Part shown: piece after piece, positions 1-38,277 of the stretch | Layout of the letters: each line of letters opens with the position of its first letter | Position numbering within the stretch: position 1 is the first letter of the stretch | Virus genome (UHGV): UHGV-0391791 | DNA length: 38,277 nt | Strand: one strand, 5' to 3' | From: a virus | Made by a program: the position numbers and the translations under genes | The notes under the pieces: generated by a model | Database searches by the model: none | The model's input: the letters and a program-made list of their open reading frames with translations, nothing else | What the model was told of the DNA's origin: nothing

Positions 1-1262
1 ACCTTCGCAGACAGATACATGGTTCCAAGATCAGAGAACGATGACAGCAACGCGGATCCGAGTCTGCTGGCAACCAGCCAGTTGCGGATATTGTCAGACC
101 ATCGCGCGATGTGCGGATTCGCTACAGGCTGTGTCTTTCCGGAAATAAAGTTGTACAGATTCTCTGTGTTGTTCGCCAGCCGCTCGACTTTACCGGTTTT
201 ACTCGGGTTAGCTGTTGCCGTTTCTGCCTTCACCTGATCAAGAAGAGAGCGGAAAACATGATCGGGGTTTGGGCCATATGTTTCCACCAGTGCAATATCT
301 TTACTGATACCTTCCAGGTGACCGACCATGATTTCCCATAGAGAGCGATCGCCATAAAGTTGCTGATATTGAAGATAGGAATCTGCATCTTTGAAATGTA
401 TCTGTCGTGATGCATTACCACGGTTAGCACGTGCGCCGGAAATTCGCATTCCGGTATCAGTAAGCTTATTCAACCCACCAGTAGCGATCGTGTTATAAGC
501 CTCTCCAAGAAATGCAGACAACTCGGCATCGTTCATCAGTTGTCCATCGGCTCGGGTATAATATTTGCGATCCAGCTTACCTATAACATCGCTAACCCAT
601 TTATCTTTTGATACCGCCCCAACCTTTTCCATAGAATGATGTTGAGGGATCCCCCAGTTTTCGAGATAGCCAATGTCCCCACCAGCATCATTAAACCGGC
701 GGCGCAGCAGCTCTGTAACTTCTCTCCACGCCTTAGCACCTTTTCTTGCTTTAGCATTGCCAGTATTTTGCCCCCGCATTTCATATACCAGGTCACGTAC
801 GCCAGCTTCATCTTCAAACAGACCAAAAAAGCGAGGATCAACTGCTTCGAATGCCTCCTGCAATTGACTCAATGCATAATCACGGGTGGCTTTTGTTCTG
901 GATTCAACAGAGAGGAAATTCGATTTACCGTCTGCATTAAAAGCAATAGTACGGTTAAGAGCGCCAAGTTTCCCATCAGCCCCTTGATAGCTATTGATAA
1001 ATTTATCCAATCTCTGACGTGCGGCTATAGTGAGGGCCACACGACGTTTCTTTAATGCCGCTTCTCGCTGTAATTCTTCAGATGCCAATTGTGCTGCACG
1101 ATATAGCCGCTCTGATTCGGAAAGTTGTCTCCACGACATCGGGTCATCACGAGCAATAGAGCGCATATTTCGATAAATGCGGTCTTCAATGTTCTGTATT
1201 TCTCGCGCCGTTAACGTGCGCTGCGCCGCCTGCTGGACCGCTTGTATACATTCCTGTCTCAT
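1..1262 (-). CDS. Internal virion/ejection protein, N-terminal part; ORF starts at ATG 1262..1260 and runs off the left edge with no stop
   Basis: Not in the ORF track because it is edge-truncated. Manual minus-strand translation from 1262 (MRQECIQAVQQAAQRTL...) is open to position 1. In frame with the ORF at the right window end if the sequence is circular. Confidence 0.5.
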   Translation of the reverse strand, partial: MRQECIQAVQQAAQRTLTAREIQNIEDRIYRNMRSIARDDPMSWRQLSESERLYRAAQLASEELQREAALKKRRVALTIAARQRLDKFINSYQGADGKLGALNRTIAFNADGKSNFLSVESRTKATRDYALSQLQEAFEAVDPRFFGLFEDEAGVRDLVYEMRGQNTGNAKARKGAKAWREVTELLRRRFNDAGGDIGYLENWGIPQHHSMEKVGAVSKDKWVSDVIGKLDRKYYTRADGQLMNDAELSAFLGEAYNTIATGGLNKLTDTGMRISGARANRGNASRQIHFKDADSYLQYQQLYGDRSLWEIMVGHLEGISKDIALVETYGPNPDHVFRSLLDQVKAETATANPSKTGKVERLANNTENLYNFISGKTQPVANPHIARWSDNIRNWLVASRLGSALLSSFSDLGTMYLSAK

Positions 1263-1267
1263 TTAAT

Positions 1268-3070
1268 TTAACCTCTCAAGAAACACGCCACAGCGACATC
1301 AAACAGGCTGGAATCCTGTATTGCCTGCTCACTTTCCCTGTTCGCTTCATCCAGTACTTCACGCGCGCTGCGCGATTGTGGATTACCATCATCATCCAGC
1401 ACGGTGATTATCATGTCAGGTGATTCAAGCAGCGAGTCTTCAGCTATGCGCAGATCAATATCTCCTGCCTTATCTGACATCATTTTTTGTTCTGCCTGTT
1501 GCAATATTTTATCAGGCTCAAAAGGAGCTACTTCGTCTGGCGTCCTGACCTCTGCTGTTTTATAGAATGAAACAGCCTGAGCATTAAGTTCACTTTCTGC
1601 CTGCTGTCTCCGAGCCAGTTCTGCTCGAGCTTCAAAAAGCTGACCGCCAGGCTCGTGCGGTGCCAACGCGTTACGGGAAAATTCCAGGCGTTCTTGTGCC
1701 TGCCGGATTCGTTGATCAATATCGCGAAGTCTGGCCTGTTTATCTGATCGAGCACGAGACAAAGCTTTACCGCTACCGGTTGGCTCTTCTGCAAGAATTT
1801 GTGCACGCTGTTCAGTGAGATTTTCAATAATTCGTTGGCTATTAGCGATTTCAGACTGGTAAACCTGTCTATCTCCACGCGGCAAAAGCTGCGCGGCCTG
1901 TTCTTCAAGCAACCGATTTTCTATAGCGCGCGCCGTTACTCCATCATCTACAGATGACAGAGCCTCATTAACTGCCTGAGACAGCAGACTCTTGCGCCCA
2001 GGAATTTCACTGAAAGATGCAGACTCAACAATGCTGGCAACGTCTACAGGTCTCCCCTGGCTAACATCAGACATAGCTTTTCGCAGAGCCTGAATGTGAG
2101 AATTGCGCGAAAGCACGTTGATCGGCACGCCGGGCGCAATATCAATTTCAGCATGATGAGCGGCATTCGCCGCCAGTGCAGCATCGATATCAACTGGTGA
2201 AAAATTTGGTGCGTTTGTAGACTCGCCGCGAGAGTTAATAAATCTGCCGACACCACCAAACGCCACCCCAAGAACAGCATCAATAGCAATTGCCTGTCGA
2301 TCCAACACATCATACTGGTTAGCCATTTCGCTATAGCCACCATCACGAAGCGTTTTTGCAGTAAGCCCACGCTGTGCCATACCGAACGCAATATTTGTAC
2401 CTGCGGCATAGGCAATATCTGGCGTTGCACGTACTGCTGTTGCTGCGGCGCGTCGTACTGAACTTTCACCCGTCCGCGCGAGCTGAGCCGCCACACCTTC
2501 CGCCAGCGCACCACCAGCACGTAACCCGAGGCTCATAGGGATCAATGTCCCGGCCCCAGCAGTAATGCCCTGCACTAATCCCGCTTCCTGCGCTGTCCTG
2601 AAATCAACACCCTGTGCTGTCAGCCGTTCAAACTCAGAAAAACCCTGTAGCGAAGTTACCGCCGCTGCACCTCCGACAGGACCACCGAGCGTTGTACCGA
2701 CAACAGCCTGCCCGCCCATATCGAACAACCCATAAAGAACCTGCCCGGCGGTTCCGGTTGTCGCGGCATCAGGCGTCAGCCGCTTAACCTGCTGCTCTGC
2801 TAGTTTTCTCTGCTCGGCAATGTATGAAACTGAAGTGTCATTGAGCGAGGTGTTTTCGTTAACAAACTGAGCAATCGGGGATACGATTTTATCCATCCCT
2901 GCCCATAGCAACTGATCTGGCTTTGCCACCAGCCCGGAGTACAAACCAGACAATGCCGCTCCTACAGCATTGTCGAAAAAACCAACATCGCTGTTAAAGC
3001 CAGCTGGATTTGATACTGCTTCGTCAAGCTGCTGATTCTGGTTTACTGGATTAAGGCCAAAGTAACTCAT
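1268..3070 (-). CDS. Internal virion/ejection protein (600 aa), Gly/Ala-rich central segment
   Basis: Track ORF; lies in the run of large genes downstream of the tail tube genes; start overlaps upstream gene stop (3067..3070), typical translational coupling. Confidence 0.55.
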   Translation of the reverse strand: MSYFGLNPVNQNQQLDEAVSNPAGFNSDVGFFDNAVGAALSGLYSGLVAKPDQLLWAGMDKIVSPIAQFVNENTSLNDTSVSYIAEQRKLAEQQVKRLTPDAATTGTAGQVLYGLFDMGGQAVVGTTLGGPVGGAAAVTSLQGFSEFERLTAQGVDFRTAQEAGLVQGITAGAGTLIPMSLGLRAGGALAEGVAAQLARTGESSVRRAAATAVRATPDIAYAAGTNIAFGMAQRGLTAKTLRDGGYSEMANQYDVLDRQAIAIDAVLGVAFGGVGRFINSRGESTNAPNFSPVDIDAALAANAAHHAEIDIAPGVPINVLSRNSHIQALRKAMSDVSQGRPVDVASIVESASFSEIPGRKSLLSQAVNEALSSVDDGVTARAIENRLLEEQAAQLLPRGDRQVYQSEIANSQRIIENLTEQRAQILAEEPTGSGKALSRARSDKQARLRDIDQRIRQAQERLEFSRNALAPHEPGGQLFEARAELARRQQAESELNAQAVSFYKTAEVRTPDEVAPFEPDKILQQAEQKMMSDKAGDIDLRIAEDSLLESPDMIITVLDDDGNPQSRSAREVLDEANRESEQAIQDSSLFDVAVACFLRG

Positions 3071-5580
3071 TGCGGAATATCTCCGGAGAATCTCTGACGC
3101 TTCTGTGTCAGATCAAGAACAACAGGAGAACCATCATCCTTCAGCAGATATCCAGTCCCAAGTTTTACCAGGTACTGACTATCGCCGTAACTTTGCAAAC
3201 CATACTGACCAGGCGGTGTTTTTATCCCTGTGCCGACAACTTGTTCATTCCAAGCCTGATTAACCTGCTTATCGAATTGCTCTGCAGACATTCCCCACGG
3301 CAAAAGGACATTCCCCATTCCGTTATAGTCATGCACGCCACCTGTAGCTACGTTAACAGCCTGTTTCCAGATATCATTGTCAATTTCGCCTGATACCACG
3401 CCTTTTTTCGCCATCACACCAGCGTAATAGTCCTTTGCGATCTCGTATGCCATTGATGCCCCCTGAGCATCACCAGCAAATGCATCCTTCACCATGTCAG
3501 AAAACTCAAGGCGAAGATCAGCATCTTTAGGCATCGGAATACCTTTCGCATCATCAGTACCTTTACGAGCCGCCGCGCCAGCAAGAATTGTCTGCGCAGC
3601 GGTTTCAGGTGACACGGAAACATCCGGATTAAACCAGTTTTTTTCTGCCAAAATACCACCAGGTTTATCCATCAGTATCCCGGCAACGGCAGCAGATGGA
3701 GCGTTGGCACTGATCTGCTGTAGTGCTGACATATACACCTGCCCACCACCAGTGCTTTGCCTGATGGTATCGAGATATGCTGCCTGTTGGGAAACGGGCG
3801 CATCACGAAAGAAAACACCGATCTGATTGGCCTCGTCTTTGGAAAAGAACGTCAGTGGAGTGCCATATGACTTGGCAAGGTCACTGACCTGAGCGGCACG
3901 CAAGGCAACGCTCTGTCCAAAGTTATCCTTATTGCTCATGTCGATAGGCTTTGCCTGTCCGGCGGCAAGAGAGAACTGCACAGGATCCGACTGCCGCTGC
4001 TTTATCACCTGATTTGCAGCCGAAACAACGTTGTCATAAAGAGCTGCGCGTGCCGCATACCCCTCCCCTGTCTCACCAGTATCCGGGCGTAATTGCTCAA
4101 CATATGCTGTAATGCTGCTTGTCGGCATGTTGCGGAAAGAGCCTATATACTGTCCGGCGATCTGCGTATTTCTGAACTCGGTATATCGCAGGTTTCCTTC
4201 TCTGACGCCATAAGCTGCAATAAAATCAGCCTCACCAGGTGGATTAGGAAATTCAACGCCACGCATATACGCAGCCGTCGCATCGCGAACCTGGCTGTCA
4301 ATCATCGTTTTATATTCAGCCTGCTGCTGCCGACGCAGTTGATCCGCCTGTCGCATATAACTTGCCTGCGCCTCAGGAGATGCCGCATCGAATGCTGCAT
4401 TACCGGTATAGCGTTTGGTGTTGGTTGGAATTGTTGATAAACCAAGTGCTGCACTGACACCAGCAGTTAACTGCTGATCACTGTATGGCTGGCTACCGTT
4501 CTCATGATGGATAATGGCTGCACAAAGCGCCTTCAGGGTATCAGGATTTGATGCATCGAGAGGCTCATCAGCAGAAACGCCAAGTTGTTCGCACACTGCT
4601 TTGATATACGACATAGTGTCATTTTTATCAGTAGGCGGTGCCCAGCGATTAATTATCTCGCTGACTGTATCAATACCCTGCCGCTGATACGACATCAGGT
4701 TCCGCCCTAATGCACGAATCCCGTGTTCAGGTGTTTCGAATTTAGCAAATCGACCATCATCACCGGTCTGGCCTACCCACGGATTAGTTTTGCTGTATTC
4801 GAGATTTCCTGGGTTATTGTTGCGTATGCCACGGGCACGCTCGGAAGAGTCACTATCTGCTACAGCACGGCGAGCTCCAGCAGCAGTATCACTTAACTCG
4901 CCATTACTTTGGATGAATGCGGTCGCATTGTTTGCCGACCACTGGGACAATGCAGCATCAGCAACCTTCTCTTTAAACTCGATTTTCTTGGCCTGGATTT
5001 GCTCGTCACTCCAGCCATGTGCAATGCCGTAATCCTCAATTTGCTGGAAAGTTTGCTTATTAGCCAATACGTATGCGGCGTTGTCGCCATACAATGCTGC
5101 GGCATTTTTACCATTGTTCAGCAGCGCAGCCTGAAACTGGCCTTCTTCGTAGGCATTTATTTGCCCTATCTCGTGCCGCCCTGCCTGCGTAGTGAACTGA
5201 ATGCGCTGCTGCTGCGCCTGCTGCATGAAAGCATTACGAGCCTGTTCATCCGGCAGCGACATAGCCAGTTGTTCGACCTGAGCATCAAACTGCTGCGTAT
5301 ACTCCTGACCTTTTCCAATAGCATTTTTCCCTTTCAGGTTAAGCAATCCTGTTTCAGGATTATTCAGCAGATCGCTGCTTATCTGGCTTAAGCTAAGAGA
5401 AGCATCCTGAGCCATAGCAACATTCGCACGCTGTTTTGCCTGCGCAATAATACCTGCATATTGCTCTGCAACATCGCCAAGTACATCACCGACATTTAGT
5501 GTCTGAAACGATGAGAATCCCTGCGTCGAAATCCCTCTGCTCTGAACCTGACGGCCCGATGTTGTTGGTACAACTGGCAT
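3067..5580 (-). CDS. Large internal virion protein (837 aa), in the position of T7 gp15-type core proteins; possible peptidoglycan-degrading segment
   Basis: Track ORF; size and position in the structural operon; central segment GIRNNNPGNLEYSKTNPWVGQ recalled as muralytic-like (unverified). Confidence 0.55.
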   Translation of the reverse strand: MPVVPTTSGRQVQSRGISTQGFSSFQTLNVGDVLGDVAEQYAGIIAQAKQRANVAMAQDASLSLSQISSDLLNNPETGLLNLKGKNAIGKGQEYTQQFDAQVEQLAMSLPDEQARNAFMQQAQQQRIQFTTQAGRHEIGQINAYEEGQFQAALLNNGKNAAALYGDNAAYVLANKQTFQQIEDYGIAHGWSDEQIQAKKIEFKEKVADAALSQWSANNATAFIQSNGELSDTAAGARRAVADSDSSERARGIRNNNPGNLEYSKTNPWVGQTGDDGRFAKFETPEHGIRALGRNLMSYQRQGIDTVSEIINRWAPPTDKNDTMSYIKAVCEQLGVSADEPLDASNPDTLKALCAAIIHHENGSQPYSDQQLTAGVSAALGLSTIPTNTKRYTGNAAFDAASPEAQASYMRQADQLRRQQQAEYKTMIDSQVRDATAAYMRGVEFPNPPGEADFIAAYGVREGNLRYTEFRNTQIAGQYIGSFRNMPTSSITAYVEQLRPDTGETGEGYAARAALYDNVVSAANQVIKQRQSDPVQFSLAAGQAKPIDMSNKDNFGQSVALRAAQVSDLAKSYGTPLTFFSKDEANQIGVFFRDAPVSQQAAYLDTIRQSTGGGQVYMSALQQISANAPSAAVAGILMDKPGGILAEKNWFNPDVSVSPETAAQTILAGAAARKGTDDAKGIPMPKDADLRLEFSDMVKDAFAGDAQGASMAYEIAKDYYAGVMAKKGVVSGEIDNDIWKQAVNVATGGVHDYNGMGNVLLPWGMSAEQFDKQVNQAWNEQVVGTGIKTPPGQYGLQSYGDSQYLVKLGTGYLLKDDGSPVVLDLTQKRQRFSGDIPQ

Positions 5581-5592: not shown

Positions 5593-6132
5593 TTATCGAC
5601 CGGTTGGAGTGCCAACAGCAGCAGAAATCGGCGCAGCCTTCTGAGAGAACGGGCTCCACGTTCCTCCGCCCATCTGGTATGCACCGTATGCTTTTAGTGG
5701 TGCCGTTAACAAAGTGCTGGTCATCGATGATTTAGCAGCCGACTGAGCAGCAGCCCCCTGTGCCCGAGCATTCATTCCCTGAACCTGATACCCATATGCC
5801 TCACGCTGAGCGTTATTCACTGTCGTTAACGCATCAAGAGTGCCGAACTGAGCATTATCCGCAAAAACGTCAAGAGCTGTTCCGCTACTTAATTCCGCAC
5901 CGGTAGCCCCCATAGTGGCCGCCGCAGTGCCTGAGCGTTGACGCATTTCACGACGACGCTGATCCGCTTCAATATTCCCACGATTGATTGAATCCTGTGC
6001 CTGAGCTTCAGCAATTTCAGCATTCCGATCAGCTATGGCTGACTGGTATTTTGCCTGCTTGCTCTGGCTGTACATTGACGCGGCTGTGGATGCCACTGTG
6101 ACGGCAACCAAAGCGATGGCTGGGTTACACAT
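5593..6132 (-). CDS. Small internal virion protein (179 aa) with N-terminal hydrophobic helix and Ala/Gln-rich body
   Basis: Track ORF; N-terminus AIALVAVTVASTAAS is hydrophobic; position equivalent to T7 gp14. Confidence 0.45.
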   Translation of the reverse strand: MCNPAIALVAVTVASTAASMYSQSKQAKYQSAIADRNAEIAEAQAQDSINRGNIEADQRRREMRQRSGTAAATMGATGAELSSGTALDVFADNAQFGTLDALTTVNNAQREAYGYQVQGMNARAQGAAAQSAAKSSMTSTLLTAPLKAYGAYQMGGGTWSPFSQKAAPISAAVGTPTGR

Positions 6133-15200: not shown

Positions 15201-15277
15201 GTGGCATTAGCTCAGTTGGACAGAGCAACCGCCTTCTAAGCGGTTGGTCGCAGGTTCGAATCCTGCATGCCACGCCA
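15201..15277 (+). tRNA. tRNA-Arg, anticodon UCU (reads AGA), phage-encoded, argU-like
   Basis: Manual cloverleaf: 7-bp acceptor stem GTGGCAT/ATGCCAC, D-arm GCTC/GAGC, anticodon stem ACCGC/GCGGT with loop CTTCTAA, T-arm GCAGG-TTCGAAT-CCTGC, discriminator G plus encoded CCA; 77 nt. Confidence 0.85.
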
Positions 15278-15364: not shown

Positions 15365-15440
15365 AGCAGGACGCCATTGCGATGACTTCATGCTGTAAAC
15401 CAGTACAGCCACGGAAGGCATAACTCATTGCTTCCAGTTC

Positions 15441-15464
15441 GCCCGGTTCGCCGGGCATTTTTTT
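15441..15464 (+). terminator. Hairpin plus T-tract immediately upstream of the RBS of the 15476 gene
   Basis: GCCCGG-ttcg-CCGGGC followed by ATTTTTTT, then AAGGTGAG and ATG. Confidence 0.45.
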
Positions 15465-15475
15465 AAGGTGAGATT

Positions 15476-15853
15476 ATGAACGACCAGCAAATCGAAAAAG
15501 AAATCGTTGAGAAAGGCAAAACGGCACCGCGAATCACCCCGCAGCACATCGAAGACGTGATTATTAGTGAGCACTATTTCACGGCTGCAGAAGGGGTTCA
15601 TGGCGCTAATGAGCTTTTAAAACCGCATGAAAGCCCAATTGACTATTACCAGGAAGCGCACCCTGCTGAGTCACTTCTGACCTTCTGCGTCCTGGTGCTG
15701 CGCAACGGCTTCACCGTCACCGGAGAAAGCGCCTGTGCAAGCCCGGAAAACTTTGATGCAGAAATTGGTCGGAAGATTGCCCGGCAGAATGCTGTAAACA
15801 AAATCTGGATGCTCGAAGGTTACTTGCTGAAGCAGAAGCTAAGCGAGCAATAA
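15476..15853 (+). CDS. Hypothetical phage protein (125 aa), moron-like, opposite strand to the late operon; resembles Gp49-like phage proteins (recalled, unverified)
   Basis: Track ORF with SD AAGGTGAG; bracketed by terminators; C-terminal segment ...SPENFDAEIGRKIARQNAVNKIWMLEGYLLKQ. Confidence 0.5.
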   Translation: MNDQQIEKEIVEKGKTAPRITPQHIEDVIISEHYFTAAEGVHGANELLKPHESPIDYYQEAHPAESLLTFCVLVLRNGFTVTGESACASPENFDAEIGRKIARQNAVNKIWMLEGYLLKQKLSEQ

Positions 15854-15856
15854 CAC

Positions 15857-15870
15857 CGTGACATGTCACA
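15857..15870. repeat. 14-bp palindrome CGTGACATGTCACA (copy 1 of 3)
   Basis: Exact 14-mer also at 18122..18135 and, inverted, at 36466..36479. Confidence 0.8.
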
Positions 15871-15873
15871 AAC

Positions 15874-15900
15874 AGCCAGCCTATGAGCTGGCTTTGTTTT
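15874..15900 (+). terminator. Rho-independent terminator
   Basis: AGCCAGC-ctatga-GCTGGCT followed by TTGTTTT. Confidence 0.6.
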
Positions 15901-15943: not shown

Positions 15944-17419
15944 TTAAGCATAGGGATCGTAATCTGTGATGGCCTTGCCTTGCTGGTTCTGCTGACCGGG
16001 AATTCGCAGACGCTTCGACACAGGGAACGCAAACGTCAGCAGTAGCGCATCGCCTTTACCAGGAGAACGCCCAAGTCGCTCTTTGATATCTTCCTTCGGT
16101 TCGATAACGATTTTACCGTCCACTCGAACTTTGTACTCTGCTGCCGACAGGTCGTCCGCTGTTTCCTGGTCATCAAGCATGCCGCCCAGCCTCAGCCATG
16201 TCTTGCATGAGTTGAACATCTCCCCACGCTTGTTGAGCATCTGCGGGTCAGTAGACGCGCCACCGAACTGAACAAGTTGCCATGTACGACCCCAGCCGTC
16301 ACCGATTGACTTCAGACCAGTTCCGTAACCGAAGTCGATGAACACTGCGTCAGCCTGGTACTGGTCTTCAAAGTCAGCGATACGCTTCGCCATAATCAGA
16401 TCGTCAGTGGTCTTGTTGCCAGTCCACAGCATCTTACTGTGTAGCCCCTGCCGCAGGTATATCACCGCGTCATCAACGCCTGAATATGCCGGGTCAACAC
16501 CGATTATCACCGGAGCATGCGCCACCTGCGCAGCGGTTACCACCCGTTTCATTGCCTCATCAGTAAGACCGGTAGGGATAAACTGCAATTCAGATGCATC
16601 AGGGAATATGCCGCGCACACGGATTTTAACGAAGTCGCTGTCTTCCCCGTAGTCATCAACCCATTTCTGCAACTGCTGTTTGTTAGTGCCTTCCACCGTC
16701 CGGCTGTCAATCTGCGCAGTTTTCCAGCGGTGTTTATATTTGCGGAAACATTCGCGGAAACGCCCGGTGTTACGTGTAGGGTTTCCGAACGCCACCCAGA
16801 TAATCTCAGTGTCTTCGTCCGTAAGCGCACCCTCAGCAACTTCCCACACCAGATCCGCAATGTTCGACGCTTCATCGAATACCACGATGATGCGTTTGCG
16901 CTCGTTGTGTAGTCCGGCGAATGCCTCAGTGTTGTGCTCAGACCAGGGGATTGCGTCAGCTCGCCACCGCTTGTCGTGCCCAGGATCATTGCTGTACATC
17001 GCGGTAGCGGTACAGGTAAACCAGTCTTTCGTGATAGCAAGGTTCGACCACTTGATAATTTCCGGCCAGGTCTTCGTTCGTAGCTGGTTGTCGGTGTTGG
17101 CGGTCACCACGACCTTACAATCCTCGCAAGTGGACATGCCCCAGTTGATCAGCATTGAGATGAATGCGGATTTACCAATACCGTGACCAGAAGCGCGTGC
17201 CAGCATAAGCGGCTGATAGCGCGTCTCTGGATTCTGCAGGTGATCACGTATCTCTCGGAACGCATCGGCCTGCCACTGACGTGGGCCGGTAGCATGTGCC
17301 AGTTCAGTCCCCTCTTCCCCCCAAGGGAACGCATAGAGGGCATAACCAAGCGGATCGTGAGTGAACCCTGCAATATCCTCGATTAACTGCTCTTCAGGAG
17401 ATAACACGGTATCTGTCAC
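15944..17419 (-). CDS. Terminase large subunit (491 aa)
   Basis: Track ORF; Walker A-like GHGIGKS; size; between small terminase and portal. Confidence 0.85.
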   Translation of the reverse strand: MTDTVLSPEEQLIEDIAGFTHDPLGYALYAFPWGEEGTELAHATGPRQWQADAFREIRDHLQNPETRYQPLMLARASGHGIGKSAFISMLINWGMSTCEDCKVVVTANTDNQLRTKTWPEIIKWSNLAITKDWFTCTATAMYSNDPGHDKRWRADAIPWSEHNTEAFAGLHNERKRIIVVFDEASNIADLVWEVAEGALTDEDTEIIWVAFGNPTRNTGRFRECFRKYKHRWKTAQIDSRTVEGTNKQQLQKWVDDYGEDSDFVKIRVRGIFPDASELQFIPTGLTDEAMKRVVTAAQVAHAPVIIGVDPAYSGVDDAVIYLRQGLHSKMLWTGNKTTDDLIMAKRIADFEDQYQADAVFIDFGYGTGLKSIGDGWGRTWQLVQFGGASTDPQMLNKRGEMFNSCKTWLRLGGMLDDQETADDLSAAEYKVRVDGKIVIEPKEDIKERLGRSPGKGDALLLTFAFPVSKRLRIPGQQNQQGKAITDYDPYA

Positions 17420-18012
17420 TGATTACCATCCTGACGTTCTTTGAGTCGCTTCCTGGCTGCTGCTATGCGATCAGCAATTGTCACATTCACATTAACATCC
17501 AGACGTTCTTTGAACGCGTTGACATCAACATGCTTACCAATCAGCTCAAGGTTCTTCACCTTGTCAGGCCATTTAATTTTTTTGAGGATTGTCTCTATCG
17601 AATCCTCGTTCATGTTCATGATGGTCGATGACAGATCAAAGCCACTAAGCGTAGTGCGCCAGATTTTCGGCCACTCACGGATTGGTTTAAGGCTCCCATC
17701 GTCGTTGAGGATATCGATCACGTCCATCTGGTCGATCTCCACCAGGCGCATGAGAACGTAATCAGCACTGACGCGCATTCGTTTGTTGCGCTCCTCCATC
17801 AACTCGGCAATCCGTTTTTGAATGCGTTCATCGCGCATCATGACACTGGCTTTAACTGCCGCTGTATTTGGGGAGAATCCTGCGTTAATCGCTGCCTGAG
17901 TCTGGTTTTCAGGCGTTTTGATGTATGACTGGCAATAAGCCTCCTGCATTGCTGTTAGTGGCTTAAATTGCGTTGATTTGCGTTTATAGGTTTTAGGTTC
18001 AGCAGGCATCAT
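17416..18012 (-). CDS. Terminase small subunit (start placed at MMPAEP..., about 198 aa; track start 18090 judged too far upstream)
   Basis: Track ORF 17416..18090; its first 26 codons span tandem DNA repeats and a terminator hairpin, so the internal Met-Met at 18012 is preferred; overlaps terL start. Confidence 0.6.
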   Translation of the reverse strand: MMPAEPKTYKRKSTQFKPLTAMQEAYCQSYIKTPENQTQAAINAGFSPNTAAVKASVMMRDERIQKRIAELMEERNKRMRVSADYVLMRLVEIDQMDVIDILNDDGSLKPIREWPKIWRTTLSGFDLSSTIMNMNEDSIETILKKIKWPDKVKNLELIGKHVDVNAFKERLDVNVNVTIADRIAAARKRLKERQDGNQ

Positions 18013-18018
18013 AACCAC

Positions 18019-18051
18019 CGTGGTAATAGTTACCGTTGTGGTAATAGTACC
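18019..18051. repeat. Tandem repeat GTGGTAATAGT(T)ACC x2 in the small-terminase leader; contains everted half-sites GGTAA-tag-TTACC
   Basis: Read directly: ccgtGGTAATAGTTACCgttgtGGTAATAGTACCatg. Confidence 0.6.
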
Positions 18052-18081
18052 ATGCAAAATAAAGCCGCCATAGTTGGCGGC
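18052..18081 (-). terminator. Rho-independent terminator on the minus strand just upstream of the small-terminase gene
   Basis: Minus strand GCCGCCA-acta-TGGCGGC followed by CTTTATTTTG. Confidence 0.55.
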
Positions 18082-18121
18082 AGTATTCAAAACCCATCAA
18101 ATTCATCATGCATAATCTACT

Positions 18122-18135
18122 CGTGACATGTCACA
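18122..18135. repeat. 14-bp palindrome CGTGACATGTCACA (copy 2 of 3), overlapping the stop codon of the 18131..18472 gene
   Basis: Exact match to copies at 15857 and 36466. Confidence 0.8.
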
Positions 18136-18472
18136 CTATTAATTTCGTTTCATGCCAGCCTTTAGTCACCCAGCATTGCGAGTCACCATTGCACGGGCAT
18201 GAATTCACAGGAACTCTCTCGCCGCACTTACCGCAACGTTTTCTGCTGATCGATTTTATACGCCCGCGCACGCGTGCATCATCCTGGCGGATCAGTAACG
18301 CTATATACTCACCAAATTCGTAAGGCGCACGCCCGGGGCGACGCGTGGCACAGTTACGCTCCAGCATTTCAATTTCCTGAGCATCAAGCACAATCTCCAG
18401 CTTACGCACACCAGATGCAGCTTGTCTGGCTCTCTGAGCGGCTTTGCGCTCTGCTGCTGATTTAGCCATCAA
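18131..18472 (-). CDS. Hypothetical protein (113 aa) with basic N-terminus and C-terminal Cys cluster (zinc-ribbon-like); last gene before the late operon
   Basis: Track ORF; C-terminus RKRCGKCGERVPVNSCPCNGDSQCW. Confidence 0.45.
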   Translation of the reverse strand: MMAKSAAERKAAQRARQAASGVRKLEIVLDAQEIEMLERNCATRRPGRAPYEFGEYIALLIRQDDARVRGRIKSISRKRCGKCGERVPVNSCPCNGDSQCWVTKGWHETKLIV

Positions 18473-18496
18473 TATTTACCTTTATCGCGAACATAC

Positions 18497-18718
18497 TTAG
18501 CTGTGTGTTGCCGATGTGCGGAGATTCTCTTCTATCAATTCCACGCATTCTGACCGACGAACAAATAATTCGTCTCCGTTATGAATTACGACATAGCCGT
18601 AAGCGGTTTTACGCATCACATCGAACTCATCCCATACGGAAATACCGCACTCTGCTAACGAGCAATCCAAATAATCTTCCGGATGCTTGTCGGTGTTATT
18701 AATGATGCGAATCCTCAA
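18497..18718 (-). CDS. Hypothetical protein (73 aa)
   Basis: Track ORF in the nin-like early cluster. Confidence 0.4.
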   Translation of the reverse strand: MRIRIINNTDKHPEDYLDCSLAECGISVWDEFDVMRKTAYGYVVIHNGDELFVRRSECVELIEENLRTSATHS

Positions 18719-18748
18719 ATCTTTTCACCTTTAAGGATAAGTTGCATG

Positions 18749-19345
18749 TTAGCCACGGTTAACCTCCTTCGGCGGTTCTGGTAGCGGCATCCAGTGGGTT
18801 ACCTCTTTGAGATACAGGTCTTCGCCATCACCGTCATCCCAAGTGGGATTGCCATCATTAAACCAGTCGCCATATACGCCGACCTGAGTGTTGGGGATGT
18901 TTGGCGGGTAGTTGTTTTTAAAGTCAGCTGCTAACACATAGCATTGTCGCTCTCCCATTTCTGGCATTCGCTCACTACAGCTTATCCAACCATCCGGAGT
19001 TACCGGAGAGTTGCCAGCGGCCTCGGGCATATCCGGACCTTTGCGAATAGCCTTTGCAAGCTCAACAGGGTCATCGTAAAGCCAGTCGCCAGTTTGTGGG
19101 TGATTTGCTTCTGCAAGCTGCGCAGCCCATTCAAGACCATCTTTTTGACCTTGGAGATAATCAAGCGGCAACTCTTCATGATTACTTGCAGGTTCGGCAC
19201 TATCAGCTTCGCGCCGCTTCTGTAGCTCTGCTGCCATTGCTCTCACGACTTCAACTGGTGCCCTTGCAGCAAACTCTATGTTGGTGATCAGCTCATTAAG
19301 ATATTGCTCGCCTGGATACTGTTTCTTATCGGTTATAGTGGTCAT
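18749..19345 (-). CDS. Hypothetical prophage protein (198 aa), DUF551-like C-terminus (recalled)
   Basis: Track ORF; Trp/Asp-rich C-terminal segment typical of small lambdoid accessory proteins. Confidence 0.5.
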   Translation of the reverse strand: MTTITDKKQYPGEQYLNELITNIEFAARAPVEVVRAMAAELQKRREADSAEPASNHEELPLDYLQGQKDGLEWAAQLAEANHPQTGDWLYDDPVELAKAIRKGPDMPEAAGNSPVTPDGWISCSERMPEMGERQCYVLAADFKNNYPPNIPNTQVGVYGDWFNDGNPTWDDGDGEDLYLKEVTHWMPLPEPPKEVNRG

Positions 19346-19355
19346 GTGTTACTCC

Positions 19356-19622
19356 TTAACCCGCAGTGCTTTCAACTGATGAGGGGAATAAAATCTTTTC
19401 ATCAAATCCGGCATTCATATCATGGACAGCAACACACCAATCCATCGACGAACGATTATCAAGAGCCTCCATGATTTCATCCATGCGGCGCAGGTCATAC
19501 AGGTAAATGCTTTTATCGCCAATGGTGTAAAAACCAATTTTTTTCGGTGATGGGCAGCGATCAAGAACGTCCTGTAATTCGCTCAACCATGCTTGTTCTT
19601 TTTTTGTCAAAGTTGCCATATC
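19356..19622 (-). CDS. Hypothetical protein (about 88 aa; start placed at MATLTKKEQ)
   Basis: Track ORF 19356..19661; internal Met gives start abutting the upstream gene stop. Confidence 0.35.
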   Translation of the reverse strand, partial: DMATLTKKEQAWLSELQDVLDRCPSPKKIGFYTIGDKSIYLYDLRRMDEIMEALDNRSSMDWCVAVHDMNAGFDEKILFPSSVESTAG

Positions 19623-22829: not shown

Positions 22830-22844
22830 GATTAATCTCCGCTA

Positions 22845-23045
22845 TCAGCTTGAATGTTGTGGGGAGGAATTAATCATGATCTGCTTAATCTCAGCCCTGA
22901 TGCGACGGTTTGATTCCATGGTGCACTCAACACAGTGTCCGTTGTAAACCCAACGTTCACTGTCATGTCCGTGCTTACATGGTTTTCCGGTGTAGTAGCG
23001 TTTAAGTCCGCGCTTTGCGGCATCAATACGTGTAATGATTTCCAT
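22845..23045 (-). CDS. Small zinc-ribbon protein (about 66 aa from MEIITRID...), in the cII-equivalent position
   Basis: Track ORF 22845..23108; Cys/His cluster KPCKHGH...GHCVEC; internal start chosen because the upstream residues are hydrophobic and lack an SD. Confidence 0.4.
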   Translation of the reverse strand: MEIITRIDAAKRGLKRYYTGKPCKHGHDSERWVYNGHCVECTMESNRRIRAEIKQIMINSSPQHSS

Positions 23046-23124
23046 GGTAAGCCCTGTTATTAGTATTGGGATTACGGTCATTTTGTGCTGACACAAAAAA
23101 AAGATCAACCAGATTTGGTTTTTT

Positions 23125-23139: not shown

Positions 23140-23152
23140 CGAATAGATATGA

Positions 23153-23508: not shown

Positions 23509-23510
23509 AT

Positions 23511-29339: not shown

Positions 29340-29620
29340 AAACCATTTTCATGACGGTATGAGAGTATACCTTTAAGGTAATACCGTCACCTGTACCGCC
29401 GAAAAATATGGTGTAGAGTGAATAGAAATGAATACATAAAAACAAAAACCCTCTGCAAAAACAGAGGGTTGAGTTGGCATCTGAATAGGAATGATTTGCT
29501 ATGAGTTAGCTGTTAATCATTCCCACTCAATTATTTACGATACACATAAACAATTGACTGATAACAACTTTCTTCCAAATGATTTTCACCGTACCGTTTT
29601 ATATACCGTCACCGGAAATC
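29340..29620. other. Candidate attP: arm-type repeats TACCGTCACC (29382, 29604; inverted copy 29352; partial 29587) flanking a 9-bp inverted repeat GGAATGATT/AATCATTCC (29488..29523)
   Basis: Repeats read directly from the sequence; location adjacent to the integrase start. Confidence 0.35.
29438..29468 (-). terminator. Rho-independent terminator ending the leftward tailspike-lysis operon before the integrase
   Basis: Minus strand CCCTCTG-loop-CAGAGGG followed by TTTTTGTTTTT. Confidence 0.6.
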
Positions 29621-31503: not shown

Positions 31504-33966
31504 TCAATTCCCTGTTAATTGCAAAACTTGCTCTTCCAGCTTTTTAACCCTGCGTCTCATCATCGCAGATTCCAGAATCAGAGCCTCTTCATAACGGATA
31601 CCGTAACATTCACCAGCCTCGACGGCTTCGCGTACCAGAACCTTTGTCTGTATAAGTGGGTAAACTCCTGCAGAATGCTCTTCTTCCGTCACATCCCTGT
31701 ATTCTGCCGGGGTCTCATTCCACTTGTCATAACAGATAAATGCCAGTCGTGACACATCTATGCCTTCATTCTGAAATACACTGATAACATGCTGCGCAAC
31801 TGCACCAAAGTGCCATCTTGCTCCGTCTTTACCTTTCACTTCGATCCTGTCAAGGTACTGGTATGAAACCCATTCCACTCTTTCCCATGCGTCCAGTATT
31901 TTCTCATCAATAACCTCTGGAGCAGTCTTGAAACGCGCATCGGACAGCACCGTAAACGCTGACTGGGTAAATCCCCCCGACCATGCACGACCAGCCAACC
32001 CAAGAGAATAAGTATTCGTTGTCGATGGTGTCATGGCTGAATCAGAAAACTGTATATATTCTGAATTTCCAGTAGATATTCGAATATTTCCATTTATTAG
32101 CGACATAGTGCCTTTAGTATTATCACTATTGAATAATTTCAATTGCGAACTTATACCGCCTCCCACAGCCAGAGATACATCGCCTTCAGCAAGCATTCTG
32201 AATTTATCTGCAGAAACAAGCGTCTGGTTAGCAAGGTTAAAATATTTAACCCACCATTCAAAACGCCCTGACATAGTCCCAACGTACTGACCAAGCGCAG
32301 GGACGTGAACAACATTGCTATTTGTAGTGCCGTCTATACTGGAAATACCAGTCACCGCTGATGCAGAACTCAGAATATTATTTCTGTCACCCGGATGTTT
32401 AATTTCAACAAAGTTCCTGATACACCCTTCCTCGAAGGTAACCACGCCGGAAGAACTATACATGGGGAATATTGACGCATAATTACTGCGTGCAGCATCT
32501 AAGAAACGAATGGTTGTAGATGTCTGCAGATCTCCTGATTCATTTTTCCCATCACACCCAGTCATTAGAATATTACTGGCAATATTATTATTTCCCTGAA
32601 CGGTGACTCCGTGCGCCTGCTTTGCGTCCGATTCAGAGTAATCAACCAGCACATTCGAAATCAGGTTACCAGTCCCCTTGCCAACAACTACTGCGGCGTA
32701 TTTTGGGTTGTTAGCCATTACACTGCTAATGATATTATTCGTTGGGGCAGTTTCCGTCTCAGTTCCATTGTAAACAACGTGCTGACACTCTTCACCAATA
32801 ACATTGCTGACAATGTTATATTTTGCTGCTGTTTTAAGTTCCACTGCACCAAACTGAGGATAATTTCTGGCTATCACACCATCAATTAGCGTATTTTGCG
32901 ATGAATCAAAAAGCACACAACCTGCTTTTTTATTATTTGCGAACCCTAAATACTCTCCTCTTATATCTCTAACAATGTAACCTGACGGAATACCATTATT
33001 CGGATAAGCGATCAAGCTAAATCCTGTTCCTCGCGTATTTGTAAATCTGATATTTTTAACCGATACATCATGGCCACCTGAAAATGACACCTGGTGTCCC
33101 TGCACACTATCATCTGATTTATTTCCCATAATTGTTAGCGTACTAAGCATGCCACCATCGGGCATGTTAAAAACCAGATGATTACCATCTCTGTCATACT
33201 GTTTTATCGTTCCCCCACCTGTTCCGTACAAGCCACAACGTGAAAGAGAAACTAAAGATGTATTGAATACCCCTTCCGGAACAAAAACACTGCTAAACGA
33301 ATGTAATGATTTTGTAAAAGCATCCTTGTTATCATTTAAGATTCCATTTTGAGCTCCAAAATCCTTAATGCTGACACCATCACGCATCTTATCCTGGAAC
33401 GTTCTGTATACCGCTCCAGAACCATACTGAATAAACCAACCAAAACCACCAATAACTCCGGCGATTGCAGCATCGACATAATTACGCATTGAGCGATTAT
33501 TTACAGCGTCCTGCTCAAGTGATGGATCGGCAAGGTTAGATATTCTGTTTTGCTTTGCATCGTAATATTTTGCAAGCAAAGATGGTTTCATCAATGCACG
33601 TCTGAACCACCCAAAACATCGCTGGATCAGCATCGTCAGGTAGTCAAATGCATCCTCATGAACTTCGGGGAAAAATTTTCCCTGATTGCGAAGATCAGTC
33701 TCCTGCACCACATCAAGCACACGCTCTATCGTGATTCGCCAGCCAGCAGCAAGCGGCGACGGAAGAACCACTGCACCGCCACTATAAGTTCCCGCCCCTG
33801 TTACCGTATAACCAGCATCCAGCACTAGTTTTGTAACGTTACCGTTAAGGTCAGACACCTGAACAACCAGGTCGGATTTTTTGAAAATACGGAAGGTATA
33901 CGGAAATGATGTCGTAACGCCGTTACCTGTGTATTCGTTGTGGTCAACTTCGGTTGAGACCGTCAT
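31504..33966 (-). CDS. Tailspike / tail fibre (820 aa) with C-terminal intramolecular chaperone (peptidase S74-like) domain
   Basis: Track ORF; Asn/Gly/Ser-rich central region; C-terminal block ...SDARFKTAPEVIDEKILDAWERVEWVSYQYLD...GARWHFGAVAQHV typical of self-cleaving chaperone domains. Confidence 0.8.
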   Translation of the reverse strand: MTVSTEVDHNEYTGNGVTTSFPYTFRIFKKSDLVVQVSDLNGNVTKLVLDAGYTVTGAGTYSGGAVVLPSPLAAGWRITIERVLDVVQETDLRNQGKFFPEVHEDAFDYLTMLIQRCFGWFRRALMKPSLLAKYYDAKQNRISNLADPSLEQDAVNNRSMRNYVDAAIAGVIGGFGWFIQYGSGAVYRTFQDKMRDGVSIKDFGAQNGILNDNKDAFTKSLHSFSSVFVPEGVFNTSLVSLSRCGLYGTGGGTIKQYDRDGNHLVFNMPDGGMLSTLTIMGNKSDDSVQGHQVSFSGGHDVSVKNIRFTNTRGTGFSLIAYPNNGIPSGYIVRDIRGEYLGFANNKKAGCVLFDSSQNTLIDGVIARNYPQFGAVELKTAAKYNIVSNVIGEECQHVVYNGTETETAPTNNIISSVMANNPKYAAVVVGKGTGNLISNVLVDYSESDAKQAHGVTVQGNNNIASNILMTGCDGKNESGDLQTSTTIRFLDAARSNYASIFPMYSSSGVVTFEEGCIRNFVEIKHPGDRNNILSSASAVTGISSIDGTTNSNVVHVPALGQYVGTMSGRFEWWVKYFNLANQTLVSADKFRMLAEGDVSLAVGGGISSQLKLFNSDNTKGTMSLINGNIRISTGNSEYIQFSDSAMTPSTTNTYSLGLAGRAWSGGFTQSAFTVLSDARFKTAPEVIDEKILDAWERVEWVSYQYLDRIEVKGKDGARWHFGAVAQHVISVFQNEGIDVSRLAFICYDKWNETPAEYRDVTEEEHSAGVYPLIQTKVLVREAVEAGECYGIRYEEALILESAMMRRRVKKLEEQVLQLTGN

Positions 33967-36892: not shown

Positions 36893-37081
36893 TTATTTTA
36901 TTATTCTTCCGAACAATACAATTCCGAATACTACAAAGCCGAACCATGCCGCTGCACGCAACAGAGATTCCAATTGAAACCCATTTTTATCAAAATGTAT
37001 GAATAGCATAAAAACGCTGCACATATTAGTACAATAAAAGTTATTTGAACCATCATATCTCCTTTTATTGCGGAGTGACAT
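36893..37081 (-). CDS. Small ORF (62 aa) with hydrophobic C-terminus; uncertain
   Basis: Track ORF; start overlaps the stop of the upstream large gene; AT-rich. Confidence 0.25.
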   Translation of the reverse strand: MSLRNKRRYDGSNNFYCTNMCSVFMLFIHFDKNGFQLESLLRAAAWFGFVVFGIVLFGRIIK

Positions 37082-38277
37082 CCTGTGGTCGCCACCAGTA
37101 TGTCTGGTTAAACTCTTTCTTCGAACGTTGCTCCATTTTACGCAAATAGCCTGGTGAAAAATACTCCTGCATCTGGTTAAAGATCATGTGATCGAGAGCC
37201 GCCTTCAAGTACCAGAGATTCGCACCAGGCATCAAACCTTTCCCCAGCTTCACCAGATCACCACCAGTCTGCTCACTCTTCCCTTCCACAGCATTTAACG
37301 GTATGCCCTGAGCAATCTTCACTACGTCATCAACCAGACCAGCTACCGGGCCAAGCATCGACGCCAGCGCGCCGCTTCCGTACCTAGTGTGATCTGACAA
37401 TAAAAAGTCACCGTAAAGGCCAAGACCACCACCTTTCAGTAGAGCACCAAGCCAAAATTTAGCAGCATCTTCTCCTGTCATCTCGCGAGGATTACGACCA
37501 GACGCAAGGTCGTTAAGTTGCTGCGACAAAGCGCCAAGAATGGTCGTACTGGCAATAAACGTCGCAATATATGCCGCACGCCCACCAGCAGACGGCATAC
37601 CCATAGCGCGTGACCAGTGACGCATAACCACCGAGATAGGGAACGATTTAAACAGGAAAACACTTCTCGTTAATTCACCTTTCCATGTTCCACGCTGAAT
37701 ACCAGAACCGGTTATCAGTTGCTCACGTGCTCCCGGTGTAATAACAGCCATATCAACTTCTTCAGTTACGGCACCGAGCAGTTTACGCATTGCCTCAAAT
37801 TTCACGCGTTCAGGCTCACCAAGATGTTTAACTGCTGAATCAGGGATACGCATAATGCTTTCCGGTGTCAGCATCGTATTATTGCCGTTCCCCCAGTCCT
37901 CCTGTTGCGCCAGCTTCCATACGCTCCAGTCTGTGTCAGTAATCCCTTTGCTTTTCAGGATACGAAAATCAGAATCATCGAGGCTACGAAGGTCTGGTGT
38001 CCGTGACACTACTTCTCCCAAGCTTCCCATCATGGTTACGCCATAGGCGCGCTTGTGCGCATCTGACCATGCTGTAAGCCCACTGGCACGCATTACCGCC
38101 GTTGCAGCCCAACGAGACACAGACGGCCCCATATTATCCATCGCCCAGCGGTTAACGCTGCCAAGTAGAGATTCCATCGCCAGACCAGCGCGGCGCGCCC
38201 GCGCAAGTTCTGTACGGTTCGTTGGGTCCATAGCTTCAAGCTGGTTGCGGAATAACTGGTTCATTGGAAGGTTGGTA
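37065..38277 (-). CDS. Internal virion/ejection protein, C-terminal part; ORF is open upstream to the right window edge and is in frame with the left-edge ORF 1..1262
   Basis: Track ORF 37065..38264 starts at the first Met, but the four codons upstream (T-N-L-P) are open to the window end. Confidence 0.5.
   Translation of the reverse strand, partial: TNLPMNQLFRNQLEAMDPTNRTELARARRAGLAMESLLGSVNRWAMDNMGPSVSRWAATAVMRASGLTAWSDAHKRAYGVTMMGSLGEVVSRTPDLRSLDDSDFRILKSKGITDTDWSVWKLAQQEDWGNGNNTMLTPESIMRIPDSAVKHLGEPERVKFEAMRKLLGAVTEEVDMAVITPGAREQLITGSGIQRGTWKGELTRSVFLFKSFPISVVMRHWSRAMGMPSAGGRAAYIATFIASTTILGALSQQLNDLASGRNPREMTGEDAAKFWLGALLKGGGLGLYGDFLLSDHTRYGSGALASMLGPVAGLVDDVVKIAQGIPLNAVEGKSEQTGGDLVKLGKGLMPGANLWYLKAALDHMIFNQMQEYFSPGYLRKMEQRSKKEFNQTYWWRPQDVTPQ

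What the first reader, a model, noticed from the sequence alone, without database searches (positions are those of the whole stretch)
1..1262. Window is probably a complete circular or circularly permuted phage genome: the two edge ORFs join in frame
The minus-strand ORF starting at 1262 runs off the left edge, and the minus-strand ORF ending at 37065 is open to the right edge. If position 38277 is joined to position 1, the reading frames are continuous (...SAK-V-TNLP-MNQLFRNQ...) with no stop, giving one protein of about 824 aa. Together with the internal integrase and attP, this indicates the window is a whole phage genome linearised inside a virion-protein gene, not a prophage with host junctions. 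Such a record is easily mis-annotated as two truncated genes.
Basis: inference. Interest (0 to 1): 0.45.

Follow-up and report, generated by a model that had tools for sequence, protein, structure and literature searches.

The report
Complete phiV10-like phage genome, cut mid-gene

Summary
Joining base 38277 to base 1 gives an uninterrupted 824-aa minus-strand ORF. That product aligns end to end in one piece with phiV10 p20 and its relatives at 99.3-99.8% identity. Window bases 1 and 38277 map to adjacent bases in phiV10, ZX5 and HEMP4. The 40-mer across the join is exact in at least 80 IMG/VR contigs, and the 499-mer is contiguous in 319 complete E. coli genomes.

The whole window is collinear, as a rotated reverse complement, with phiV10 (80% intergenomic similarity, genus Uetakevirus). 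It is 99.6% similar to a prophage integrated at guaA in E. coli AR_0086. The window reads straight through the published 17-bp attP core (29515-29531), 190 bp upstream of the integrase gene. It holds no host DNA, and its length equals exactly one attL-to-attR unit.

The cut gene encodes the epsilon15 gp17-type internal virion (ejection) protein, which is remotely linked to the C-terminal half of T7 gp16. Two sister records, 65FD and pHL15EC-2, show the same kind of cut, and 65FD shows the predicted mis-annotation. Whether the virion DNA is circularly permuted (headful packaging) is inferred from relatives and was not shown here. Interest is low and this is already known.

The parts
1..1262 (-). 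5' part of the 824-aa internal virion protein gene (epsilon15 gp17 / phiV10 p20 orthologue): codons 1-420 plus the first two bases of codon 421. It runs off the left edge.
   Evidence: phrog_684 matches residues 1-824.
37065..38277 (-). 3' part of the same gene: the third base of codon 421 (38277), codons 422-824 and the stop (37065-37067). The 399-aa 'ORF' listed from ATG 38264 starts at internal Met426.
   Evidence: Hydrophobic segments lie at residues about 653-673 and 722-743.
29515..29531 (-). attP core (ATTGAGTGGGAATGATT on the minus strand), intact and flanked by phage DNA on both sides.
   Evidence: It matches both ends of the AR_0086 prophage, and attP equals the left arm of attR plus the right arm of attL. 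It is identical to the published attP of ZX5, phiV10 and epsilon15, 190 bp upstream of int (PMC9782041).
28074..29324 (-). Tyrosine integrase (416 aa).
   Evidence: Pfam Arm-DNA-bind_3, Phage_int_M and Phage_integrase. Orthologue of phiV10 p31.
17416..18090 (-). Terminase small subunit.
   Evidence: PF03592 Terminase_2, E 1.4e-29; phrog_51.
15944..17419 (-). Terminase large subunit.
   Evidence: phrog_2. The orthologue phiV10 p02 is annotated as similar to P1 PacB.
18130..18131 (.). The point that corresponds to the two ends of the phiV10 reference record (phiV10 base 1 and base 39104). The window is continuous here. This is the conventional place to open the record, upstream of terS.
5593..6132 (-). 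Internal virion protein of the T7 gp14 family (179 aa), the first gene of the ejection-protein block.
   Evidence: PF24072 T7_gp14, E 4.6e-08; phrog_418.
3067..5580 (-). 837-aa internal virion protein with a transglycosylase-type region.
   Evidence: phrog_992, phrog_1044 and phrog_7182 'tail injection transglycosylase'.
1268..3070 (-). 600-aa virion protein (epsilon15 gp16 / phiV10 p19 orthologue), immediately upstream of the cut gene.
   Evidence: phrog_1145.
31504..33966 (-). Tailspike (820 aa). [quoted passage not shown]
   Evidence: Pfam Peptidase_S74 and Beta_helix. Window 31420-33546 has no match in phiV10. It is 100% identical in AR_0086.

Best explanation
The window is exactly one complete genome unit of a temperate podophage of the genus Uetakevirus (phiV10/epsilon15 group). 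It is in the non-integrated (attP) configuration. The sequence closes on itself, and the record was opened at an arbitrary point that falls inside the gene for the 824-aa epsilon15-gp17-type internal virion (ejection) protein. It is also written as the reverse complement of the usual orientation.

Shown here: the two edge fragments are halves of one gene, the join is base-exact, attP is intact, there is no host DNA, and the length equals one prophage unit.

Inferred: the circle arises because the DNA that was sequenced has no fixed ends. It was either headful-packaged, circularly permuted and terminally redundant virion DNA, or the excised or replicating circle. An assembler therefore closes it and cuts it anywhere.

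Also inferred: the cut gene's product is packed in the capsid and expelled at infection. It acts with the gp14-family protein and the 837-aa transglycosylase-bearing protein to build the trans-envelope DNA conduit. It is remotely related to the C-terminal, membrane-associated half of T7 gp16.
For: - The fused product is 824 aa with no stop.
- It aligns over residues 1-824 in one piece at 99.3-99.8% identity to phiV10 p20, ZX5 and HEMP4, and 117 phage records cover at least 80% of it in one place.
- The junction 499-mer is 100% identical and contiguous in ZX5, HEMP4 and many E. coli chromosomes, and 319 of 5426 genomes carry it.
- The junction 40-mer is exact in at least 80 IMG/VR contigs.
- Window 1 and 38277 map to adjacent bases in three reference genomes, and the window is collinear around the full circle.
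- The attL/attP/attR alignment and the guaA-yfgI context in AR_0086 show the window is the attP form. The same 17-bp core is published.
- The unit length matches.
- Intergenomic similarity is 80.1% to phiV10 and 99.6% to the AR_0086 prophage.
- All modules are present: terS and terL, structural genes collinear with phiV10's portal and capsid genes, tailspike, lysis, int, repressor and replication.
- For the relative Tyrion, terminal redundancy was seen in the assembly and circular permutation was confirmed by PCR (PMC5754475).
- TerS belongs to PF03592, and the phiV10 TerL is annotated as PacB-like.
- Protein function: phrog_684 'virion structural protein'; distant homologues are annotated 'internal virion protein'; synteny after the gp14-family gene.
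- The family profile matches, at hhalign probability 96.7% and E 3.8e-10, the 1129-aa protein in the same slot of the DETEC-S566 prophage. That protein and T7 gp16 both belong to phrog_342.
Against: - The source record's topology and the reads were not available, so closure rests on comparison with relatives and not on direct evidence for this molecule.
- No identical record was found in the phage, plasmid or E. coli collections. The best match is 99.6%.
- The packaging mode was not determined for this phage. TerL gave no Pfam, NCBIfam or PDB hit that would classify it.
- The direct profile match to T7 gp16 is weak: probability 7%, only a shared QFKSF-type motif.
- There is no Pfam family and no solved structure for the 824-aa protein.
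Confidence: 0.93

Rival explanations
1. The same complete genome, but the sequenced molecule was an extrachromosomal circle (an excised or replicating phage genome) picked up in a bacterial whole-genome assembly, and not virion DNA. This concerns only the origin of the record and is compatible with the main conclusion.
For: A full Uetakevirus genome is deposited as the circular 41,027-bp 'plasmid' pHL15EC-2 of E. coli HL15, opened inside the portal gene. One search found 3 junction matches on plasmid records of complete E. coli assemblies. ZX5 lysogens release about 10^7 PFU/mL spontaneously.
Against: Nothing in the sequence distinguishes this from a virion-DNA assembly. No plasmid record identical to the window exists in PLSDB.
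Confidence: 0.35
2. The window was cut out of a tandem (double) prophage array in a chromosome, where the junction between two copies also has an attP-like sequence.
For: A tandem array would also give an internal attP-type junction and no host DNA. In one search at least one genome has two copies of the junction sequence.
Against: The window would have to begin and end at precisely the same phase of two successive copies, with zero overlap and zero gap. That is not expected of an arbitrary chromosomal window. Its length equals exactly one unit.
Confidence: 0.02
3. The two edge ORFs are separate genes. The ATG at 38264 is a genuine start of a 399-aa protein, and the in-frame join is coincidence.
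For: An in-frame join has about a 1-in-3 chance. The ORF listing reports a 399-aa ORF from ATG 38264. PHROGs holds half-length families that match residues 1-466 and 504-823.
Against: All close and distant homologues are single CDSs. The alignment is conserved straight through residues 415-430. There is no Shine-Dalgarno-like motif in the 13 nt before 38264. The half-length PHROG families are best explained by truncated annotations such as that of 65FD.
Confidence: 0.01
4. The window is a prophage excerpt with host junctions, or a linear genome whose physical ends coincide with the window edges.
For: The phage is temperate, and near-identical copies are integrated in many E. coli chromosomes.
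Against: In the integrated form the ends are at the att core next to guaA and yfgI, about 8.7 kb and 29.5 kb from the window edges. The window contains neither flank. Physical ends inside an essential virion gene with no terminal repeat would leave the gene split on the packaged DNA.
Confidence: 0.01

Closest known systems
Escherichia phage phiV10 (NC_007804, genus Uetakevirus) and relatives ZX5, HEMP4, PAS61 and phiv142-3
   Same: The gene order is collinear around the whole circle. Shared regions are 95-98% identical at the nucleotide level. The 824-aa protein is 99.3-99.8% identical. The attP core and guaA integration are the same, as are the integrase, terminase and structural modules.
   Different: Overall intergenomic similarity is only 77-80%, below the 95% species line. 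The differences are mosaic replacements at 18523-20525 (early genes), 31420-33546 (tailspike receptor-binding part) and 34712-37051 (accessory genes). phiV10's O-acetyltransferase gene lies in the tract with no match in the window, 21416-24823. The record is rotated and reverse-complemented relative to phiV10.
Prophage at guaA in E. coli AR_0086 (NZ_CP032201.1, 2297286-2335558)
   Same: 99.6% intergenomic similarity. Window 29515-38277 is 100% identical. The tailspike and accessory genes are the same.
   Different: It is integrated (attL/attR with host flanks), whereas the window is the attP form. There are 96 mismatches over window 1-29531, and a 21-nt in-frame indel plus sequence change in the Gp49-family gene (window 15554-15676).
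Salmonella phage 65FD (MT580116.1) and plasmid pHL15EC-2 (NZ_CP079771.1)
   Same: Both are Uetakevirus genomes whose records were opened inside a structural gene. 65FD is cut in the same gp17-type gene and pHL15EC-2 in the portal gene.
   Different: The cut points differ. 65FD is labelled linear and its N-terminal gene fragment is unannotated. pHL15EC-2 is labelled a plasmid.
T7 gp16 (internal virion protein D, phrog_342) and the T7 gp14-gp15-gp16 ejectosome
   Same: The position is the same: the last large gene of the internal-protein block, after a gp14-family gene and before the tail fibre region. There are C-terminal hydrophobic segments. Transitive homology runs through the DETEC-S566 slot-mate.
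   Different: There is no direct significant match. There is no N-terminal transglycosylase domain, which lies on the upstream 837-aa protein instead. The protein is 824 aa versus 1318 aa. An extra 600-aa protein lies between them.

Membership tests
Genus Uetakevirus (epsilon15/phiV10-like temperate podophages) | At least 70% nucleotide intergenomic similarity to genus members. The ICTV genus criterion is taken from my own knowledge. | tested here: met
   80.1% to phiV10, 78.3% to ZX5 and 77.1% to HEMP4, by a VIRIDIC-like calculation.
Genus Uetakevirus (epsilon15/phiV10-like temperate podophages) | Collinear genome organisation with the reference over the full length. | tested here: met
   Blastn blocks are in one order around the circle, and gaps occur only at known mosaic spots.
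Genus Uetakevirus (epsilon15/phiV10-like temperate podophages) | Integrase with the attP core attgagtgggaatgatt, which targets the 3' end of guaA. | tested here: met
   published core (PMC9782041).
Species Uetakevirus phiV10 | At least 95% intergenomic similarity. The ICTV species criterion is taken from my own knowledge. | tested here: not met
   80.1%. It is the same species as the AR_0086 prophage (99.6%).
Complete, circularly closed genome unit | The two record ends abut adjacent bases in independent relatives. | tested here: met
   phiV10 18122/18123, ZX5 37620/37621 and HEMP4 31090/31091.
Complete, circularly closed genome unit | The length equals one attL-to-attR unit of the integrated form, and there is no host DNA. 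| tested here: met
   38,256 + 21 = 38,277. The attP arms are phage DNA on both sides.
Complete, circularly closed genome unit | Record topology, or reads spanning the join, for this very molecule. | not testable with these tools
   The source record and reads are not available, and no identical record is in the searched collections.
Headful (pac) packaging with circularly permuted, terminally redundant virion DNA | Terminase of a pac/headful type. | tested here: inconclusive
   TerS is PF03592 Terminase_2. The phiV10 TerL is annotated as similar to P1 PacB. TerL itself has no Pfam, NCBIfam or PDB hit.
Headful (pac) packaging with circularly permuted, terminally redundant virion DNA | Experimental evidence of permuted ends. 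| not testable with these tools
   Shown by PCR only for the relative Tyrion (PMC5754475). Not available for this phage.
T7 gp16-type internal virion protein D (phrog_342) | A significant direct sequence or profile match to gp16. | tested here: not met
   No phrog_342 hit for the 824-aa protein. hhalign against T7 gp16 gives probability 7%.
T7 gp16-type internal virion protein D (phrog_342) | Homology to a bona fide family member over the C-terminal half. | tested here: met
   Profile A1 against the DETEC-S566 1129-aa phrog_342 protein gives probability 96.7% and E 3.8e-10, over query 286-717 and target 635-1042.
T7 gp16-type internal virion protein D (phrog_342) | An N-terminal lytic transglycosylase domain. 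| tested here: not met
   None was detected. Transglycosylase-type matches are on the upstream 837-aa protein.

The most novel reading that the evidence does not exclude
The epsilon15 gp17 family (phrog_684) is a diverged homologue of the C-terminal, membrane-associated half of T7 gp16. The family is found in Uetakevirus, BcepC6B-like, Pseudomonas MPK9-type and VP5-like phages, in pelagiphages and in the Liberibacter SC phages. In these phages the transglycosylase function has been relocated to a separate upstream protein. On this reading they all use a T7-type ejectosome split over more genes, and whole ejection modules are swapped between otherwise near-identical Uetakevirus prophages, as in the window versus DETEC-S566.
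Probability: 0.5. Interest if true: 0.25.

Novelty: already known. Interest (0 to 1): 0.08.

Why it matters
The practical value is in annotation. If the record is left as it is, a gene caller will report a 5'-partial fragment at the left edge and a false 399-aa protein starting at internal Met426 at the right edge. It may also drop one half altogether, as happened with phage 65FD. The record should be treated as circular, or rotated to start upstream of terS (window 18130/18131, reverse complement). It also confirms that the sequence is a whole phage, suitable for taxonomy and host-range comparison. No new biological principle follows from the finding.

Tried and rejected
- I looked for an identical source record in INPHARED phages, PLSDB plasmids and complete E. 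coli genomes. None was found. The best match is the AR_0086 prophage at 99.6%.
- E. coli DETEC-S566 matched window 15400-15900 at 100%, but its prophage differs in many modules and is not the source.
- I tried to classify TerL with Pfam, NCBIfam and PDB sequences, with no hits.
- I searched the 824-aa protein and an 8-member family profile against PDB sequences and found only chance-level hits.
- Direct hhalign against T7 gp15 and gp16 was not significant, and BLASTP of the DETEC-S566 protein against T7 gp16 was not significant either. The link holds only through PHROG profiles.
- The primary epsilon15 papers (Guichard 2013, Jiang 2006, Chang 2010) are not held in the library. gp17's place in the epsilon15 injection apparatus therefore rests on a secondary citation.

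Full report
**Observation.** On the minus strand, an ATG at 1262-1260 opens a frame that is still open at base 1, after 420 codons plus two bases. This ATG is preceded by GAGAGG and by the TAA stop of the upstream 600-aa gene. A minus-strand frame that ends at stop 37065-37067 is open up to base 38277. Joining 38277 to 1 completes codon 421 (GTT) and yields ...SAK-V-TNLP-MNQLFRNQ..., a product of exactly 824 aa with no stop. The two window ends share no direct repeat of 8 nt or more. An in-frame join on its own has about a one-in-three prior, so it needed an independent test.

**Test of the join.** tblastn of the fused product against 50,697 phage records aligns residues 1-824 in one piece at 99.3-99.8% identity. 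The hits include phiV10 (p20, 16861-19335), ZX5, HEMP4, PAS61 and phiv142-3, and 117 records cover at least 80% of the query in one place. A 499-nt DNA query centred on the artificial join is 100% identical and contiguous in ZX5, in HEMP4 and in many E. coli chromosomes. In total 319 of 5,426 complete E. coli genomes carry it. The 40-mer across the join is found exactly in at least 80 IMG/VR contigs, which is the listing cap. Local blastn gives the base-exact result. Window 1 pairs with phiV10 18122 and window 38277 with phiV10 18123. The same adjacency holds in ZX5 (37620/37621) and HEMP4 (31090/31091). Nothing is missing or duplicated at the join.

**Whole-genome context.** The window is collinear with phiV10 around the whole circle, as a rotated reverse complement. 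It is continuous across phiV10's own record ends at window 18130/18131. A VIRIDIC-like calculation gives intergenomic similarity of 80.1% to phiV10, 78.3% to ZX5 and 77.1% to HEMP4. That places the window in the genus Uetakevirus but not in the species phiV10. The differences are the usual mosaic spots:
- early genes at 18523-20525;
- the tailspike receptor-binding part at 31420-33546;
- accessory genes at 34712-37051.

All modules of a functional phage are present.

**Not a prophage with host junctions.** The closest relative is a prophage in E. coli AR_0086, at 99.6% similarity, and it is 100% identical over window 29515-38277. There it lies between guaA and yfgI. Window 29515-29531 matches both prophage ends. 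Aligning attL, attP and attR shows the classic pattern: attP in the window equals the left arm of attR plus the right arm of attL, around the 17-bp core ATTGAGTGGGAATGATT, which overlaps the guaA stop codon. The same core, 190 bp upstream of the integrase gene, is published as attP of ZX5, phiV10 and epsilon15 (PMC9782041). In the window it also lies exactly 190 bp from the integrase start (29324). One attL-to-attR unit in AR_0086 is 38,256 bp. A 21-nt in-frame indel in the Gp49-family gene (window 15554-15676) brings this to 38,277 bp, the window length. The window is therefore exactly one genome unit in the non-integrated configuration, and it holds no host DNA.

**Why the sequence closes on itself.** This step is inferred. 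[quoted passage not shown] The small terminase belongs to PF03592, and the phiV10 large terminase is annotated as similar to P1 PacB. Both fit headful packaging from concatemers, which gives DNA without fixed ends that assembles as a circle. TerL itself could not be classified with Pfam, NCBIfam or PDB sequences. An equally possible source is an excised or replicating circle caught in a bacterial assembly. A full Uetakevirus genome is deposited as the circular 'plasmid' pHL15EC-2, opened inside its portal gene, and ZX5 lysogens release phage spontaneously. The sequence cannot distinguish these two origins, and both lead to the same record. A tandem-prophage origin would require a window of exactly one unit with zero overlap, so I reject it as improbable.

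**The gene that was cut.** The 824-aa protein matches phrog_684 'virion structural protein' over residues 1-824. It has no Pfam family and no solved relative. By gene order it is the epsilon15 gp17 orthologue. A recent paper, citing Guichard et al. 2013, lists gp17 among the components of the epsilon15 packaging/injection device. The primary papers were not available.

Distant homologues at 20-46% identity are all single CDSs of 769-918 aa. They typically lie between a transglycosylase-bearing virion protein and the tail fibre gene. They are:
- Pseudomonas phage MPK9;
- Escherichia phage vB_EcoM_APEC;
- Burkholderia BcepC6B gp17;
- Enterobacter phage BUCT554;
- Vibrio phage J2;
- Pelagibacter phage Skadi-3;
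- Liberibacter phage SC2.

Their alignment is conserved straight through the junction residues. The block in the window starts with a T7 gp14-family protein (PF24072, 5593-6132). Next comes an 837-aa protein with transglycosylase-type PHROG matches, then a 600-aa protein, then the cut gene. The fused protein has two hydrophobic segments near residues 653-673 and 722-743.

The family profile matches the 1129-aa protein that occupies the same slot in the DETEC-S566 prophage, with hhalign probability 96.7% and E 3.8e-10 over positions 286-717, which spans the junction. That protein and T7 gp16 both fall in phrog_342. The direct match to T7 gp16 is not significant. I therefore read the protein as an ejection protein that works like the C-terminal half of gp16. 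I do not file it as a member of the gp16 family.

**Mis-annotation.** The 'complete genome' record of Salmonella phage 65FD is cut in the same gene. The C-terminal part is annotated as a 523-aa 'structural protein', and the N-terminal part (record 1-1013) carries no CDS. PHROGs also holds half-length families that match residues 1-466 and 504-823. In the window, the ORF listing already offers a spurious 399-aa ORF from internal Met426.

**Verdict.** The biology is ordinary: a member of a well-described phage genus, with near-identical prophages in public genomes, in a record opened at an arbitrary point. The only mildly new element is the remote link between the epsilon15 gp17 family and T7 gp16-type proteins, together with the ejection-module swap seen in DETEC-S566. 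Interest is low.

Noticed in passing
L005 27066-34055 (E. coli DETEC-S566 prophage), versus window 1-5580 plus 37065-38277: An otherwise closely related guaA prophage carries a different ejection module after the gp14-family gene: proteins of 915, 1129 and 283 aa. The 1129-aa protein is phrog_342, the T7 gp16 type. The window has the 837/600/824-aa trio in this position. This looks like a whole-module swap within one phage genus.
   Followed up: partly
L094 1-1500 and L095 (MT580116.1, Salmonella phage 65FD): This 'complete genome' record is cut inside the same gp17-type gene. The C-terminal part is annotated as a 523-aa structural protein from an internal start, and the N-terminal 1 kb has no CDS.
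   Followed up: yes
L096 (NZ_CP079771.1, pHL15EC-2, 41,027 bp): A record labelled as a non-mobilizable E. coli plasmid is a full Uetakevirus genome with integrase, terminase, capsid and lysis genes. It is opened inside the portal gene, so it is a phage genome deposited as a plasmid.
   Followed up: partly
window 15201-15277 (+): A phage-borne tRNA-Arg (anticodon TCT) lies between the terminase and portal genes. The same tRNA is annotated at the same place in the AR_0086 and DETEC-S566 prophages.
   Followed up: partly
window 15476-15853 (+), especially 15554-15676: The Gp49/Sf6-gene-66 family gene (PF13876) is the one stretch where the window departs from the AR_0086 prophage: 123 nt versus 102 nt, which is 7 codons. 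It matches DETEC-S566 at 100%, suggesting a small recombination patch.
   Followed up: partly
window 34712-37051: This accessory region replaces most of phiV10's accessory region between the gp17-type gene and the tailspike gene; phiV10's O-acetyltransferase gene also has no counterpart in the window. It holds an AntA-type antirepressor (34738-35394), a 210-aa ORF (35541-36173) and a 138-aa ORF (36465-36881) with no Pfam match, plus small hydrophobic ORFs next to the gp17-type gene.
   Followed up: no
window 31504-33966 (-): The tailspike has the conserved Uetakevirus N-terminal anchor but a different receptor-binding part, with a beta-helix and a C-terminal Peptidase_S74 intramolecular chaperone domain. 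It is 100% identical in only two complete E. coli genomes (AR_0086 and OZ547152), which points to a different O-antigen specificity from phiV10.
   Followed up: no
PHROGs 23925 and 26678, versus window 1-1262 and 37065-38277: Two PHROG families of 471 and 324 positions match only the N-terminal (1-466) and C-terminal (504-823) parts of the protein. They are probably built from split or truncated annotations of this gene in other records.
   Followed up: no
PMC8954989, Table 1 (literature): The ejection-protein review lists epsilon15 gp11, gp12 and gp13 (229, 499 and 708 aa) as the gp14, gp15 and gp16 equivalents. The phiV10 orthologues of epsilon15 gp11-gp13 are 201, 823 and 154 aa. In the window, Pfam T7_gp14 hits the 179-aa counterpart of phiV10 p17 (the epsilon15 gp14 equivalent). 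The table entry may therefore refer to a different phage.
   Followed up: no
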